A DNA stretch of 64,000 nucleotides from the human T2T-CHM13v2.0 reference genome, Homo sapiens. Both the position numbers and the translations under genes were made by a program. The notes beneath the pieces were generated by a model. The model saw only the letters and a program-made list of their open reading frames with translations. It searched no databases and was not told where the DNA came from. The stretch is taken from assembly GCF_009914755.1 (NCBI RefSeq), contig NC_060931.1. One strand, 5' to 3'. This document shows, one piece after another, positions 4,330-52,162 of the stretch; position 1 is the first letter of the stretch, and each line of letters opens with the position of its first letter.

Positions 4330-4612
4330 ATGACAGTGCTTAAATAATTTACCTGACCATGGAAAAAACAGAGACAGAGGTAGGAAAACCCACCTGTAGA
4401 CAATGTTAGGACAGAGTGCATAAGTCCCTAAGACCCTGAACTAAGATGCTGCAGGGCCTCCAGGAAAGGACCAATGTGAGAGACACTGAGACAAGAGTTA
4501 GGGTGAGCCTGAAGGTGATCTGAACAGTAGTAATTGGAAAGTCAAAAAAAAAAATTCCAGAAGGGGCCAGAAAGCTGATGAATGTGTAAATTTAGACAGG
4601 AAAGGAATGTGC
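4330..4612 (+). repeat. Local duplication, donor copy (pairs with 7075-7361)
   Basis: About 283 bp aligns directly with 7075-7361, with about 15 substitutions by eye plus a poly-A length difference. Confidence 0.95.
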
Positions 4613-5575
4613 AGAGAACCATAAACAACTCTCAATTATGCATGGAAGACTTTTTCCACCTAACAGTTTCCATCTTCCCTAGTATCCTACACCTCAATCT
4701 CTTCCTCAGGCATTCTAGGTTGCAGGGTTCTCCAACCCTCCCTGGAGTACTACTGAAATAGAATTAACAAATAGGAAAATACAGTACTGCCGAGAAGCAC
4801 ATTATAAATAAAACTGCATTATCCAGACTCTTATGCAGGGGGAAATGTTACACCAGCACCCAAACTGGAATGAAGTGGAAGAAAGAAGGAATCACTAATT
4901 CCTTCCCCATCCTCTGTTTTGCCATGAGCCCCTTAGGTGGTACCCATGCCACTCTTCCCCAACTTCTCACCCTCAGTGTCAGCGTAAGAGTAGAGAGTTG
5001 AAATGTAGTTGTTTTACTGAAAGCCTACTGCAGGAGCTTTTGGAATTAGTAGCAGTTTCTAACTCTCTACTCTGCATTAGAGAACAGAGGAACTAGCTGG
5101 CTTTCCAGCGCTTTCTTTAAGAGGTATAAAGCATTACTGTTCAGGGTTCATTTACCACAATGGGTAAAACAAATCAGATTTCTCTTTAGATTTAGATGAA
5201 AGGAGGATTTCCTTTCCTTCTGTATTAAAAGTCCCCAGTCTATCAGGCCCACAAACCATAAACCCAAGCACAAAAATCAATGGCAGTAAGAGTCTCAGGG
5301 ATTCTGAAAACAGTACATCTAGACACTTGATATCAGCACCAGAAAGTTTACAGCCCAATCTCAGATGGTTTTAATATTTGTATCACTGGATTCTATCATG
5401 AGTTAACATCTAATTAGTGGGGCGAGAATTGAAGTCAGACTATTAAAAAATCTAGCTCAGCAATTTACTGGTGACCTTAGGCAAGTTCCTAAACCTCGTT
5501 TTCCAATTCTTCACCTGAAAAATGGAGATAACCTCACAACAATGCCCAGCAAGACGGTGAAAATTACAGCTTACG

Positions 5576-5875
5576 GGCAGGGCACGGTGGCTCACGCCTG
5601 TAATCCCAGCACTTTGGGAGGCCGAGGTGGGCAGATCACAAGGTCAGGAGATCGAGACCACCCTGGCTAACACGGTGAAACCCCGTCTCTACTAAAAATA
5701 CAAAAAATTAGCCGGTCGTGGTGACGGGCGCCTGTAGTCCCAGCCACCCGGGAGGCTGAGGCAGGAGAATGGCATGAACCCGGGAGGCGGAGTTTGCAGT
5801 GAGCCGAGATCGCGCCACTGTACTCCAGCCTGGGCGACAGCGTGAGACTACGTCTCAAAAAAAGAAAAGAAAAAA
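5576..5875 (+). mobile_element. AluY inserted in a MIR
   Basis: AluY diagnostics (gagatcgagacc, ctaacacggtg, gaatggcatgaacccggg). 16-bp TSD gaaaattacagcttac at 5559-5574 and 5876-5891. Confidence 0.95.
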
Positions 5876-48321: not shown

Positions 48322-50447
48322 CTTTTTTTTATTTCAATAGCTTGTGGGGTACAAGTAGCTTTTGGTTACATGGATGAATTGTATAGTGGTGAAGTCTTAA
48401 GATTTTAGTGGACACTGTACCTAATATGTAGTTTTTTATTCCTCATCCCCCAACCCTCCCCCTTCAGAGTCTCCAAAGTTCATTATATCACTCTGTATGC
48501 TTCTTTTGTACCCACAGCTCACGCTTGTAAGTGAGAACATATGGTATTTGATTTTCCATTCCTGAGTTACTTCATTTAGAATAATGGCCTTCAGCTCCAT
48601 TCAAGTTGCTGCAAAAGACATTATTTTGTTCTTTTTTATGGCTGAGTAGTATTTCATGGTGTATATGTAACAAATTTTCTTTATCCACTCATTGGTTAAT
48701 GGGCACTTAATTTGGTTCCATATCTTTGCAATTGTAAATTGTGCTGTAATAAACATATGCATGCAGGTGTCTTTTTGATAAAGTGACTTCTTTTCCTTTG
48801 GGTGGATACCCAGTAGTGGGATTACTAGATTGAGGTAGATCCACTTTTAGTTGTTTAAGAAATCATGCTGTTTTTCACCAGTTGTAGTCATTTACATTCC
48901 CATCAGCTGTGTATAAGTGTTCCTTTTGTGCCACATCCACCCCAATATCTACTGTTTTTGACTTTTTAAATAATGGCTACTCTTTCAGGAGTAAGGTGGT
49001 ATCTCACTGTGGTTTTAATTTGCATTTCTCTGATGTTTAGTGATGTTGAGCATTTTTGTTTGCTCCTGCCTATATAATTACTTATGCAATTACTTCACAA
49101 GTTACTGTGAAATGCCCCCATCCAATATTATATATTACATAACTATATATATTATATGTCATATTATATATGTAATATATAGTATATTCATATATACCTA
49201 TGTGTATGCATGTACGCAAATACTATATTTAGGGGATACAGCTTTAAATACTTAAATGCCAGTTTGGGCAACATGGCGAAACCTCGTCTCTACAAAAAAA
49301 CACAAAAAATTAGCCAGGTGTAGTGGTGCATATCTGTAATCTCAACTACTTGAGGGGCTGAGGCAGGAGGATATTTGTTAGTCATTTGTATATCTTCTTT
49401 TGAGAAATGTTTATTCATGTCACTTGCCCAATTTTTGATGGGATTATTTATTTTTTCTTACTGATTTGTTTGAACTTCTTGTAGATTCTGGATTTTAGTC
49501 CTTTGTTGGATGCACAGGTTTGCAAATATTTTCTCCCATTCCGTAGGTTGTCTGTTTATTCTCATGATTATTTATTTTGCTGTAGAGAAGCTTTTCAGTT
49601 TAATTAGGTCCCATTTATTTATTTGTTTTAGTTGCATTTGCTTTTGGGGTCTTAGTCATGAATTCTTTGCCTAGGCTGAGGTCCAGAATAGTTTTTCCTA
49701 GGTTTGCCATTAGAATTTTTATGGTTTCAGGTTTTAGATTTAAGTTTTTGATCCATCTTGAGTTGATTTTTGTATAAGGTGAGAGATAGAGATTCAGTTT
49801 CATTCTTCTACATGTGGCTGTCTAGTTTTCTCAGCACCATTTATTAAATAGGCTGTCCTGTCCCCAATTTACATTTTTTGTATGCTTTTGTGAAAGATCA
49901 GTTGGTTGTAAGTAATTGGCTTTATTTCTGGGTTCTCTATTCTGTTCCTTTGGTCTATGTGTCTACATTTATACCAGTACCATGCTGTTTTGGCAACTAT
50001 AGCCTTGTAGTATAATTTGAAGTCTGGTAACGTGATGCTTCCAGATTTGTTCTTTTTGCTTAAGATTGCTTTGGCTATTCAGGCTCTTTTTTGATTCCAT
50101 ATGAATTTTAGGATTGTTTTTTCTAATACCGTGGAAAATAATGTTGGTATTTTCATGGGAATTGCATTGAATCTGTAGATTGCTTTGGGCAGTGTGGTCA
50201 TTCACCATATTGATTCCTCCAATCCATGAGCATGGGGTGTGTTTCCATTTGTTTGTGTCACCTATGTATTCTTTCAGCAGTGTTTTGTAGTTTTCCTTGT
50301 AGAGATCTTTCATTTCCTTGGTTAAGTATATTCTTAGGTATTCTATTTTTTTGGCAGCTGTTGTAAAAGAGACTGAGTTATTGATTTGATTCTCAGCTTG
50401 GCAGTTGTTGGTTTATAGCAGTGCTAGTGATATGTGTACATTGATTT
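48322..50447 (-). mobile_element. 5'-truncated L1MA1/2-like (or L1PB) element, interrupted at 49058-49370
   Basis: L1 3' UTR and ORF2 remnants (49615-50313 in track). TSD-like tggtttttttctttaaaa (48304-48321) / tggtttgtttcttgaaaa (50448-50465). Confidence 0.88.
49058..49370. repeat. Templated insertion in L1 (inverted copy of ~47400-47650 plus direct copy of 50486-50510)
   Basis: 49123-49372 is the reverse complement of the AluJ part and unique AT-rich flank at ~47400-47650. caagttactgtgaaatgccccc matches caagttactgtggaatgccccc at 50486. Confidence 0.9.
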
Positions 50448-52162
50448 TGGTTTGTTTCTTGAAAAGAGGAGAGTAACACTGAGTGCAAGTTACTGTGGAA
50501 TGCCCCCTATCAGATACTATTTTGTTGAGCTAGCACAACATTGCTGAAAGGAATGTATCATTGCCTCTGTTTCATTCATGAGGAATGTAATGTGACCTTT
50601 GGTATATCTGTCCTTCCTTTCTGGTCAGAGTGAACTGAACCAGAGTCAGCTTGCTCCAGTGTGCATATGGCATGAGGTAAGCCAATCAGATATTCTCTTC
50701 CAGGAGTTTGGAATCAAGGTTCAGTGATAGCAGGGGCTGGAACTGTAACTTGTGAGTGAGTTAACCCTCTGAGAGACTGGGTCCTGGTCTGGAGAATCTT
50801 TGTTTGCTGACTCCCAAGATAGGACAGGCAATGCTGAGTGTTCACATCCAGCTGTAGAAGCCAGGAGAAAGTTGGTGCCCCTGCATGGAAGGGTTGAGAG
50901 ATTGAGGAGCCTGGTGGAATTGGGTGCAGAAGGGGGTGACCCAGGAGCACACTGGATGACGTATTTAGAGTAGGGGCAAAAGAGAAGAACCCTAATTAGA
51001 GGTGCTGCTGGGAAGATTTGGAGGCAGAGAATGGGTTTGAAGAATTTGCCTGGGAGTATGTAGGGTAACCCCTGCATTGTCCTGCGAACTCCTCAGTAAA
51101 GTCAGATGGGCCTCTTATGTTTTGGTGAGTGCAGAGCCCTGTGTCCATGCTTGTGTGAGACAAGAACAGGGGCTGGACAGGGGAACGGCTGGCATTTGGG
51201 CTAAATGGGCCAACTCAGATGTTATAGGAGGTACCTCTTGGCAGAGGAACAGATAAAGCTGGACAGTAGAGAGAAAAGAAGAAATATGCCATTAAGAGAG
51301 AAATAAAGGTGAGAGAAAGAGTGAAAGTCTTGCTTTGTGGGTGGTGGTGATGTCTTGTTAGCCACTAGTTCTGGTTCTAGTTCTGTCCTGAGGACTAGAT
51401 GGTCTCCTGCCCTTGCTTTCTGGGAGGCATTCTTGTATACTTATTATACATTCTCTTTTTTAGTTAACCTAGCTCAAAATTGGGTTCTGTTAATAGCTAT
51501 CAAAAACCTTAATAATTACAAGAAATCCATAGCACCTAGAATTTAAGTAAATCGAGCCAAGTCCTGTGGCTACTTAGCAGTAGGAGCTGGGTTCAGACCC
51601 ATCTCCTAGCGCTCTCTCCATCACACTCTGAGTGGCCACCCTGGCTGCCTCATTGTTTTGCAAATACACCGACCTCAGGAGCTCATGCTGATCCTATTAG
51701 AGTTTGCTCCTCCTGTCACAAACAGCCCTAGAGGCCACTTCCTCACCTCATTTAGGTCTCAATTCTAATGTCACTCAGAGATACCTACCCTGACAACCTC
51801 ATCTAAAATAGTCTCTAAATTCTTTCTTGTATACTTACTATAAATATTAAGTTTCTAGGCTTTACATATTTATTTATTTTTACTAAAACTTATTGCTACT
51901 AGAATTTATATTGCATGTTTATTTGTATACTTTTTTATCTACCTCCCCCCGTCCCCACCAGAATATAAGCTCTTTGAGGTCTGGGATCACCTTTCTTATC
52001 CATTGCTGTATTTTCAGTGCACTGACTAGAACTGCACCTGGCATATGGAAGATATCCATAAGTGTTTGTTTCATCAGTTCATTAAGCCTAGATCAATGCC
52101 ATTTTCATGGCCTTATAATATTTGATCACAAACCTAGGAACACTCAGAAAAATCCTACTGGA

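What the first reader, a model, noticed from the sequence alone, without database searches (positions are those of the whole stretch)
4330..50510. Four independent locally templated insertions in one 46-kb stretch
Seen: four inserts are copies of nearby DNA. 7050-7361 copies 5893-5920 plus 4330-4612. 16177-16450 copies 16552-16600 (inverted), 16481-16494 and 18451-18667. 19381-19845 copies 32023-32482. 49058-49370 copies ~47400-47650 (inverted) plus 50486-50510. None has a poly-A tail or transposon ends, and junctions show 2-6 nt microhomology. Divergence differs clearly (4330/7075 is close, 19381/32023 is much older), so these are separate events. Established: template-switch repair (polymerase-theta TMEJ, MMBIR/FoSTeS, abortive SDSA) produces such patchworks. 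Inference: this locus may be a recurrent germline break and templated-repair site. Repeat masking would hide the pattern because the pieces look like ordinary L2, MIR, Alu and MER21 fragments.
Basis: partly seen in the sequence, partly recalled or inferred. Interest (0 to 1): 0.8.

Follow-up and report, generated by a model that had tools for sequence, protein, structure and literature searches.

The report
Four local copy-paste repair insertions
Four short stretches near the human OSBPL3 promoter are patchwork copies of DNA lying 0.1 to 13 kb away, a known by-product of imperfect break repair; whether four so close together marks a fragile spot is still open.

Summary
All four inserts align to the stated nearby sources. 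Whole-genome searches of T2T-CHM13 find each pair, or its non-repeat part, only at these two places.

These are not chance pairs of interspersed repeats:
- E3 copies the last ~190 nt of a ~540-nt repeat plus 270 nt of that repeat's own flank.
- E4 copies one particular junction between a 5'-truncated Alu and its flank, and it interrupts an L1.
- E1 and E2 are chimeras of two and at least three nearby donors.

No insert has a terminal poly-A. Junctions show 2-7 nt microhomology, filler, or a 6-14 nt direct repeat.

This matches the published class of "repair-mediated duplications" (Pace et al. 2009, PMC2671141), so the mechanism is not new.

The hotspot inference is unproven. The published minimal density predicts about 0.04 events per 64 kb. 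My small control of 200 kb held no dispersed pair. That published density is an admitted underestimate, I could not sample random windows, and the window was picked from many.

One new detail: E2 landed 6-7 nt from the tip of a strong hairpin-forming palindrome.

The parts
7050..7361 (+). E1 acceptor. A 312-nt chimeric insert in the GC-rich 5' region (intron 1) of OSBPL3. It is flanked by the direct repeat (G)CCTGGG at 7053-7059 and 7361-7367.
   Evidence: Insert GC is 0.44, between flanks of 0.59 and 0.73.
4327..4612 (+). E1 main donor, 286 nt, 2.7 kb from the acceptor.
   Evidence: 93% identity, K2P 0.058. The genome search finds only these two places (2 candidates, both scored).
5893..5920 (+). 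E1 second donor, 28 nt. It joins the main donor through an ATGATG/ATAATG overlap.
   Evidence: 26 of 28. 22 of 23 with E 5e-6. Sequences read.
16176..16465 (+). E2 acceptor. Its parts, left to right:
- an inverted copy of 16552-16600
- about 30 nt of filler
- a 14-nt copy of 16481-16494
- a copy of 18451-18667
- the second copy of a 14-nt direct repeat, ACAACACTGTGGAG (16162-16175 and 16452-16465)
   Evidence: The genome search finds only local matches (2 candidates, 3 matches, all local).
16119..16165 (.). Left arm of the imperfect palindrome that E2 split. The right arm is 16458-16505.
   Evidence: The arms are 81% complementary. The inferred empty site folds at -27.7 kcal/mol. That is z -9.1 against 300 shuffles and more stable than all 320 tiles of the window. 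The junction lies 6-7 nt 3' of the loop. The left flank is unique in the genome.
16458..16505 (.). Right arm of the palindrome split by E2. It holds the 14-nt donor 16481-16494.
16552..16600 (-). E2 inverted donor, 49 nt, about 90-130 nt from the acceptor site.
   Evidence: 45 of 49.
18451..18667 (+). E2 main donor, 2.2 kb away.
   Evidence: 161 of 178 aligned bases, with two gaps totalling 39 nt. K2P 0.103.
19381..19845 (+). E3 acceptor copy. It holds the last ~190 nt of an interspersed repeat plus ~270 nt of that repeat's flank at the donor site.
   Evidence: In 26 of 28 family loci the match to this copy starts at 19380-19386. 19580-19845 has only one other copy in the genome.
32023..32482 (+). 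E3 donor, 12.6 kb away. It lies inside the complete ~540-nt repeat (about 31650-32220) and its native flank.
   Evidence: All 28 family loci match up to 32177-32222. In 24 of 28 this is a single alignment starting at 31647-31720. K2P 0.186.
49058..49372 (+). E4 acceptor, a 315-nt insert that interrupts an L1. Its parts, left to right:
- about 40 nt of filler
- a 22-35-nt copy of 50486-50520
- an inverted copy of 47400-47650
   Evidence: The L1 halves 48526-49057 and 49390-50449 are colinear with L1 24487-25023 and 25047-26105. The gap is 332 nt here against 23 nt there. Junctions read.
47400..47650 (-). E4 main donor. It covers part of a 5'-truncated minus-strand Alu (47292-47525) and the adjoining AT-rich quasi-palindromic flank.
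   Evidence: Both copies hold the same junction between Alu and flank. Other genomic Alus match only the Alu part, query 189-315. K2P 0.135.
50486..50520 (+). E4 second donor, 1.1 kb downstream of the acceptor.
   Evidence: 30 of 35. 21 of 22 with E 4.5e-5.

Best explanation
These are four separate, fixed repair-mediated duplications.

Proposed mechanism. A germline chromosome break, or a stalled nascent strand, was healed by copying. A free 3' end primed on a few bases of microhomology at one or more nearby templates on the same chromosome or sister chromatid, 0.1 to 12.6 kb away. It copied 14-460 nt and in three cases switched template. It then rejoined the other end. The result is a 290-465-nt patchwork insert with the donors left intact.

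Shown here:
- The copies exist and are unique to these places.
- The direction of copying.
- The chimeric make-up, the microhomologies and fillers, and the lack of poly-A.
- The different ages.

Inferred:
- That a break started each event.
- Which pathway acted: SDSA with template switching, MMBIR/FoSTeS, or polymerase-theta priming for the short pieces.
- That E2's break arose at a hairpin or cruciform tip.

The closeness of the four events is most likely a tail of the genome-wide distribution seen in a hand-picked window. A regional excess is not excluded.
For: Uniqueness:
- The E1 pair is the only match in 3.1 Gb.
- E2 has only local matches.
- The non-repeat 266 nt of E3 have one other copy.
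- For the non-Alu part of E4, only the local partner covers query 67-199. Other matches are AT-rich stretches within 61-174.

Direction and insertion:
- E3's copy starts abruptly inside a repeat that is complete at the donor.
- E4 interrupts an L1 and carries a donor-specific junction between Alu and flank.
- E1 is an AT-rich block inside GC-rich flanks.
- E1, E2 and E4 are chimeras, which only the derived copy can be.

Junctions:
- ATGATG/ATAATG and (G)CCTGGG in E1.
- GAG and ACAA, plus a 10-14-nt direct repeat, in E2.
- AT in E4.
- No terminal poly-A in any.

Ages: K2P from 0.058 to 0.186.

Fit to print. In Pace et al. 2009 (PMC2671141; sections 5, 14, 16 and 21 read):
- Proximal duplications were up to 619 bp.
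- Some had chimeric donors.
- Microhomology was 2-9 nt, filler 1-68 nt and TSD 4-21 nt.
- None of the 39 inspected proximal cases had a poly-A.
Against: - No outgroup genome was available, so no empty site was seen. For E3 the acceptor flanks show neither TSD nor microhomology, and only the direction of copying is shown.
- E3's donor is 12.6 kb away, outside the <5 kb class that Pace et al. accepted as confident.
- The genome search scores only the best candidates and missed local partners at 71-88% over 43-110 nt. Faint old family members could therefore escape it.
- E2's 10-14-nt direct repeat is a minority feature of the published class.
- The pathway cannot be read from sequence alone.
Confidence: 0.8

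Rival explanations
1. The region is a long-lived hotspot. Some sequence-encoded or chromatin-encoded fragility makes this 46 kb suffer breaks, or mis-repair them, far more often than average. Candidates are palindromes, AT-rich quasi-palindromes and an open promoter. The four events would then share a cause.
For: - The published minimal density of 0.62 per Mb gives 0.04 per 64 kb. P(>=4) is then 1e-7.
- Pace et al. saw no tendency to cluster (passage seen).
- 64 random loci totalling 200,779 bp held no dispersed, locally unique pair, where about 6 were expected at this window's short-range density. P is 0.002.
- E2 sits at a hairpin tip.
- The window holds a further genome-unique inverted pair, an 80-nt palindrome and an AT-rich quasi-palindrome at the E4 donor.
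Against: - The window was chosen from very many because it looked odd.
- The published density is a stated minimum. That pipeline covered TE-borne acceptors only, dropped inserts with repeat parts, and required 80% coverage by one donor. It would probably have missed all four events here.
- With 10-fold under-detection, about 37 windows in the genome would reach four by chance. With 30-fold, about 1,600 would.
- The acceptor sites lie up to 42 kb apart, in unlike contexts, and span tens of millions of years.
- My control is small, made of 3.2-kb pieces centred on repeats. Most of its weight comes from the two shortest pairs.
Confidence: 0.15
2. The inserts were copied through RNA. Either L1 machinery or RNA-templated break repair used local transcripts.
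For: - E2 has a 10-14-nt direct repeat, and E1 a 6-7-nt one, at the insert ends.
- E1's donors lie in OSBPL3 intron 1, so they are transcribed (hub annotation).
- Pace et al. found that many distant duplications are retropositions.
Against: - None of the four has a terminal poly-A or poly-T.
- E2 and E4 mix inverted and direct pieces from both sides of the site.
- The order of E1's pieces is reversed with respect to the transcript (read).
- E2, E3 and E4 lie outside any annotated gene.
- None of the 39 proximal cases in Pace et al. had poly-A.
Confidence: 0.04
3. The pairs are unrelated members of interspersed repeat families, or leftovers of one larger old segmental duplication.
For: - About 190 nt of E3 and about 114 nt of E4 do belong to repeat families.
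- The genome search has limited sensitivity to old, faint copies.
Against: - E1, E2 and the non-repeat parts of E3 and E4 have no third copy.
- Both members of E3 and of E4 share a junction between repeat and flank that independent insertions would not share.
- Flanks do not align beyond the stated ends.
- Identities differ from pair to pair.
- Orientations and distances differ, which does not fit one larger duplication.
Confidence: 0.02

Closest known systems
Repair-mediated duplications (RDs): Pace, Sen, Batzer and Feschotte, PLoS Genet 2009 (PMC2671141; abstract and sections 5, 14, 16, 21 read)
   Same: - Short insertions. The published class runs from 50 to 619 bp.
- Each has a single donor copy nearby on the same chromosome.
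- No poly-A.
- Microhomology, filler, a small deletion or a TSD at the ends.
- Occasional chimeras of two nearby donors.
- Formed throughout primate evolution.
- The paper's proposed mechanism is SDSA with template switching.
   Different: - Three of the four acceptors here are not inside a TE.
- Two inserts contain repeat parts.
- E2 has at least three donors, one of them inverted.
- E3's donor is 12.6 kb away.
- The paper's pipeline would probably have skipped all four.
- The paper reports no clustering, whereas here four lie within 46 kb.
I therefore cannot say whether E4 is listed there.
Doublets: short paired local duplications (Thomas et al., PNAS 2004). Known here only through its citation in PMC2671141. 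The paper itself is not held.
   Same: [quoted passage not shown]
   Different: As quoted by Pace et al., that survey was among studies of identical or nearly identical duplicons shorter than 100 bp. The pairs here are 178-462 nt long and 6-19% diverged.
Polymerase-theta end joining (TMEJ) templated insertions, and MMBIR/FoSTeS template switching. These rest on established knowledge. The papers appeared only in the listing and were not read.
   Same: - Priming on a few bases of microhomology.
- Copying from nearby sequence, direct or inverted.
- Serial template switches.
- The short pieces here (14, 22-35, 28 and 49 nt, taken from 15 nt to 1.2 kb away) look like this.
   Different: - The main pieces of 178-462 nt are longer than typical TMEJ insertions (recalled, not tested).
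- They are not tied to the large copy-number changes usual for MMBIR/FoSTeS.
- The enzyme cannot be inferred from sequence.
Templated sequence insertion polymorphisms (TSIPs): Front Chem 2016 (PMC5110952; search listing and start of the abstract only)
   Same: Insertions templated from elsewhere in the genome. One class lacks the features of L1-mediated insertion.
   Different: TSIP templates are described as distant genomic regions and the insertions are polymorphic. Here the templates are local, and from their divergence the insertions are old.

Membership tests
Repair-mediated duplication (Pace et al. 2009) | The inserted sequence is at least 50 bp long and has exactly one other copy in the genome. 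| tested here: met
   - E1: 2 places in total.
- E2: local matches only.
- E3's non-repeat 266 nt: 2 places.
- E4's non-Alu part: only the local partner spans query 67-199.
- The repeat parts of E3 and E4 have many relatives. Under the paper's own filter, that would have excluded them.
Repair-mediated duplication (Pace et al. 2009) | The donor lies on the same chromosome within 5 kb, and more than 50 bp away. | tested here: inconclusive
   Met for three events:
- E1: donors 1.1 and 2.7 kb away.
- E2: donors from 15 nt to 2.2 kb away.
- E4: donors 1.1 and 1.4-1.7 kb away.

Not met for E3, at 12.6 kb. The paper counted 58 such intrachromosomal cases beyond 5 kb but did not treat them as confident.
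Repair-mediated duplication (Pace et al. 2009) | The acceptor interrupts an otherwise continuous sequence, shown by a TE consensus or by an empty orthologous site. | tested here: inconclusive
   - Met for E4 against a second L1 copy in the window.
- Indirect for E2: a palindrome restored when the insert is removed.
- Indirect for E1: a break in base composition.
- E3: only the direction of copying is shown.
- No outgroup genomes were on hand.
Repair-mediated duplication (Pace et al. 2009) | No poly-A/T tail, and junctions with microhomology, filler, deletion or a TSD. | tested here: met
   Read directly. E3's junctions show none of the positive marks, though it also has no poly-A.
L1-mediated retroposition (processed copy, class 1 TSIP) | A 3' poly-A tail, a TSD of 7-20 nt, and a TT/AAAA-like nick site. 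| tested here: not met
   No terminal poly-A in any of the four. Only E2 has a TSD-like repeat, and its site...CCACAACACTGTGGAG/ATATG, lacks the nick motif. The motif itself is recalled, not taken from a call.
Polymerase-theta templated insertion (TMEJ) | Short inserts copied from sequence close to the break, primed on microhomology. | tested here: inconclusive
   The short secondary pieces fit. The main pieces of 178-462 nt are much longer than what I recall as typical. Enzyme dependence cannot be tested here.
Interspersed repeat family members | Many dispersed copies that share the full length of the element. | tested here: not met

The most novel reading that the evidence does not exclude
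The 46 kb at and upstream of the OSBPL3 promoter is a durable regional hotspot for repair-mediated duplication.
- It holds at least four fixed events, and possibly five to seven.
- By divergence these span very roughly 13 to 90 million years.
- The cause would be local secondary-structure-forming DNA (a hairpin palindrome, an AT-rich quasi-palindrome, an 80-nt palindrome) together with an open promoter.
- No such clustered class of repair-mediated duplications has been reported.
Probability: 0.15. Interest if true: 0.65.

Novelty: new member of a known kind. Interest (0 to 1): 0.33.

Why it matters
Local copy-paste repair makes new sequence next to genes without any transposon. It falls below the 1-kb floor of segmental-duplication catalogues.

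- E1 placed 312 nt of intronic DNA inside the CpG-rich 5' region of OSBPL3.
- E2 is a natural case of a multi-template insertion a few bases from the tip of a strong hairpin. That fits the idea that palindrome tips break in the germline.
- If a proper background shows the clustering to be real, the region would be a natural system for studying why some places break, or are mis-repaired, again and again.
- If not, these are four ordinary members of a class described in 2009.

Tried and rejected
- **Random-window background.** I stopped there and asked for no further loci.
- **Substitute control.** I used the 64 loci of about 3.1 kb (200,779 bp) that searches had already delivered.
  - Dropped before counting: pairs under 60 bits, pairs spanning more than 3,200 nt, and pairs with half or more of either member matching another locus or the window.
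  - Four pairs were left: 2 near-tandem and 2 palindromes. None was dispersed.
  - The same filter on the window keeps E1, both E2 pairs, the 8959/9536 pair and the 44.5-kb palindrome. It drops E4 (Alu part) and E3 (span).
  - The control cannot bound the density tightly enough to settle the hotspot question.
- **More coordinate-only genome searches from repeat-free locus stretches**. Rejected: about 19 kb would give P of about 0.09 even with no hit.
- **Back-splice or RNA origin of E1.** The junction lacks an AG acceptor and the piece order is reversed (read).
- **E2's palindrome as a MITE.** Its left flank has no other copy in the genome.
- **E4's non-Alu part as a repeat family.** The other matches are AT-rich, two-stranded and tandem-like, and cover only query 61-174.
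- **Literature searches for a clustered or hotspot form of this class**. They turned up nothing beyond Pace et al. 2009.

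
Full report
**What was checked**

The window is human T2T-CHM13 chr7:25,110,001-25,174,000. It covers the 5' end of OSBPL3 and the intergenic DNA upstream of it.

**Are the pairs just repeat-family members?** No.

The window's own genome could be searched.
- E1 (4327-4612 and 7072-7361) has exactly two places in 3.1 Gb (2 candidates, both scored).
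- E2 (16170-16460) matches only 18451-18667 and 16552-16600.
- E3:
  - With 19384-19845 as query there were 232 candidates, of which 40 were scored.
  - Only the local partner spans query 1-462. The 38 others stay within query 1-194, at 71-84% identity.
  - The remaining 266 nt (19580-19845) have only the local partner.
- E4:
  - Other Alus match only query 189-315 (4,012 candidates, 40 scored).
  - The non-Alu part is spanned only by the local partner. Other matches are AT-rich, often on both strands and in tandem, within query 61-174.
- A caveat: the search scores only the best candidates. It also failed to find two weak local partners that blastn sees. "Unique" therefore means no third copy at roughly 70-75% identity or more over about 150 nt or more.

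**Direction and anatomy**

E1
- Insert 7050-7361 is 5893-5920 (26 of 28) followed by 4327-4612 (93%). The two overlap in ATGATG/ATAATG.
- (G)CCTGGG stands at both ends of the insert. This is either a 6-7-nt target duplication or the priming microhomology.
- The insert has GC 0.44 and sits between flanks of 0.59 and 0.73.
- Four of the 16 differences are CpG in the insert against TpG/CpA in the donor (sequences; count). That would fit an insert sheltered in an unmethylated CpG island, but this is inference.

E2
- Insert 16176-16465 holds these parts, left to right:
  - an inverted copy of 16552-16600 (45 of 49; junction GAG)
  - about 30 nt of filler with no source found
  - 14 of 14 nt of 16481-16494
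  - a copy of 18451-18667 (161 of 178 aligned bases, two gaps)
  - a return to the target through ACAA
- The ends carry the 14-nt direct repeat ACAACACTGTGGAG.
- The flanks 16119-16165 and 16458-16505 are inverted repeats (81%).
- With the insert removed in silico, the site folds as a hairpin of -27.7 kcal/mol under DNA parameters. None of 300 shuffles and none of 320 window tiles is as stable. The junction lies 6-7 nt 3' of the loop.
- The left flank has no other genomic copy, so this is not a common MITE.

E3
- At the donor, an interspersed repeat runs from about 31650 to 32220. All 28 family loci match up to 32177-32222, and 24 of 28 do so in one alignment starting at 31647-31720.
- At the copy, 26 of 28 family matches start at 19380-19386.
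- The copy therefore holds the repeat's last ~190 nt plus 270 nt of the donor's own flank. That makes 32023-32482 the source.
- The junctions show no clear TSD or microhomology.

E4
- The L1 halves 48526-49057 and 49390-50449 are colinear with L1 24487-25023 and 25047-26105. The gap is 332 nt here against 23 nt there.
- The insert holds, left to right:
  - about 40 nt of filler
  - 21 of 22 nt (30 of 35) of 50486-50520
  - an inverted copy of 47400-47650
- That last segment spans the same junction between a 5'-truncated minus-strand Alu and its AT-rich flank. Independent Alu insertions would not share such a junction.
- At the donor, the Alu runs on for another ~108 nt to its tail.
- About 6 nt of L1 seem to be missing at the acceptor.

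**Ages**

K2P distances are 0.058 (E1), 0.103 (E2), 0.135 (E4; 0.093 for its non-Alu part) and 0.186 (E3).
- With the 2.2e-9 per year rate used by Pace et al., these give roughly 13, 23, 31 and 42 million years.
- With a rate of 1e-9 per year (recalled), the ages are about twice that.
- E1 and E3 are clearly separate in time. E2 and E4 cannot be told apart.

**What it is**

The features match the repair-mediated duplications of Pace et al. 2009 (PMC2671141). That paper reports:
- 824 proximal duplications with the donor within 5 kb, up to 619 bp long (mean 162)
- chimeric donors in 20 cases
- microhomology of 2-9 nt, filler of 1-68 nt and TSD of 4-21 nt
- poly-A in none of the 39 inspected proximal cases
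- events arising throughout primate evolution

The authors attribute them to SDSA with template switching. MMBIR/FoSTeS, or polymerase-theta priming of the short pieces, would leave the same marks. Sequence alone cannot tell these pathways apart.

An RNA or L1 route is unlikely:
- No insert has a poly-A.
- Orientations are mixed within a single insert.
- E1's pieces are in the reverse of transcript order.

**Is four in 46 kb special?**

This is the only part that could be new, and it stays open.

For a real excess:
- The published density of 0.62 per Mb of TE DNA gives 0.04 per 64 kb. P(>=4) is then 1e-7.
- The paper saw no clustering.
- My substitute control of 64 loci (200,779 bp) held 0 dispersed, locally unique pairs. 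About 6.1 were expected at this window's short-range density, giving P 0.002.

Against:
- The published figure is a declared minimum, and its filters would probably have missed all four events here.
- With 10-fold under-detection, about 37 windows genome-wide reach four by chance. With 30-fold, about 1,600 do.
- The window was selected from many.
- My control is small, made of 3.2-kb pieces centred on repeats. About 5.3 of the 6.1 expected events come from the two shortest pairs.
- Acceptor sites lie 7 to 49 kb into the window, in unlike contexts.
- Random 64-kb windows could not be fetched.

- 8959-9020 matches the reverse complement of 9475-9536 at 84%. It is unique in the genome.
- Two weaker inverted pairs, at 32948/34282 and 18272/19211.

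**Verdict**
- The templated-repair reading is supported, but the class is already in print.
- The hotspot reading is unproven. I put it at about 15%.

Noticed in passing
window 8959-9072 and 9423-9536: An inverted local pair about 450 nt apart in the OSBPL3 5' exon and promoter region. It is 84% identical over the first 62 nt and 71% over 115 nt. The genome search finds no other copy. The second member overlaps the RefSeq enhancer 9480-9649. It may be a fifth, older local duplication.
   Followed up: partly
window 44497-44576: An 80-nt near-perfect palindrome (97.5%, no spacer) flanked by (CT)n and (AG)n runs. Other genomic matches are only low-complexity stretches at 74-85%. It is probably the most stable fold among the 320 window tiles, where the minimum was -27.4.
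   Followed up: partly
window 47525-47660 and 49124-49200: The AT-rich flank copied in E4 is itself quasi-palindromic: it matches itself in reverse at about 81%. It also resembles AT-rich tandem or palindromic stretches on several chromosomes.
   Followed up: partly
window 32948-32990 / 34282-34322 and 18272-18380 / 19211-19322: Two weak inverted local pairs: 38 of 43, and 79 of 112. The genome search found neither the local partner nor any other copy. The second pair brackets the E2 donor and ends 60 nt before the E3 acceptor.
   Followed up: partly
window 7072-7361 versus 4327-4612: Four of the 16 substitutions between the E1 copy and its donor are CpG in the copy against TpG or CpA in the donor. 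That fits CpG decay at the methylated intronic donor and protection inside the CpG island.
   Followed up: no
window 18512-18557: The E2 donor carries extra AT-rich sequence that the copy lacks: two gaps totalling 39 nt. This is either a later small local expansion in the donor or a deletion in the copy.
   Followed up: no
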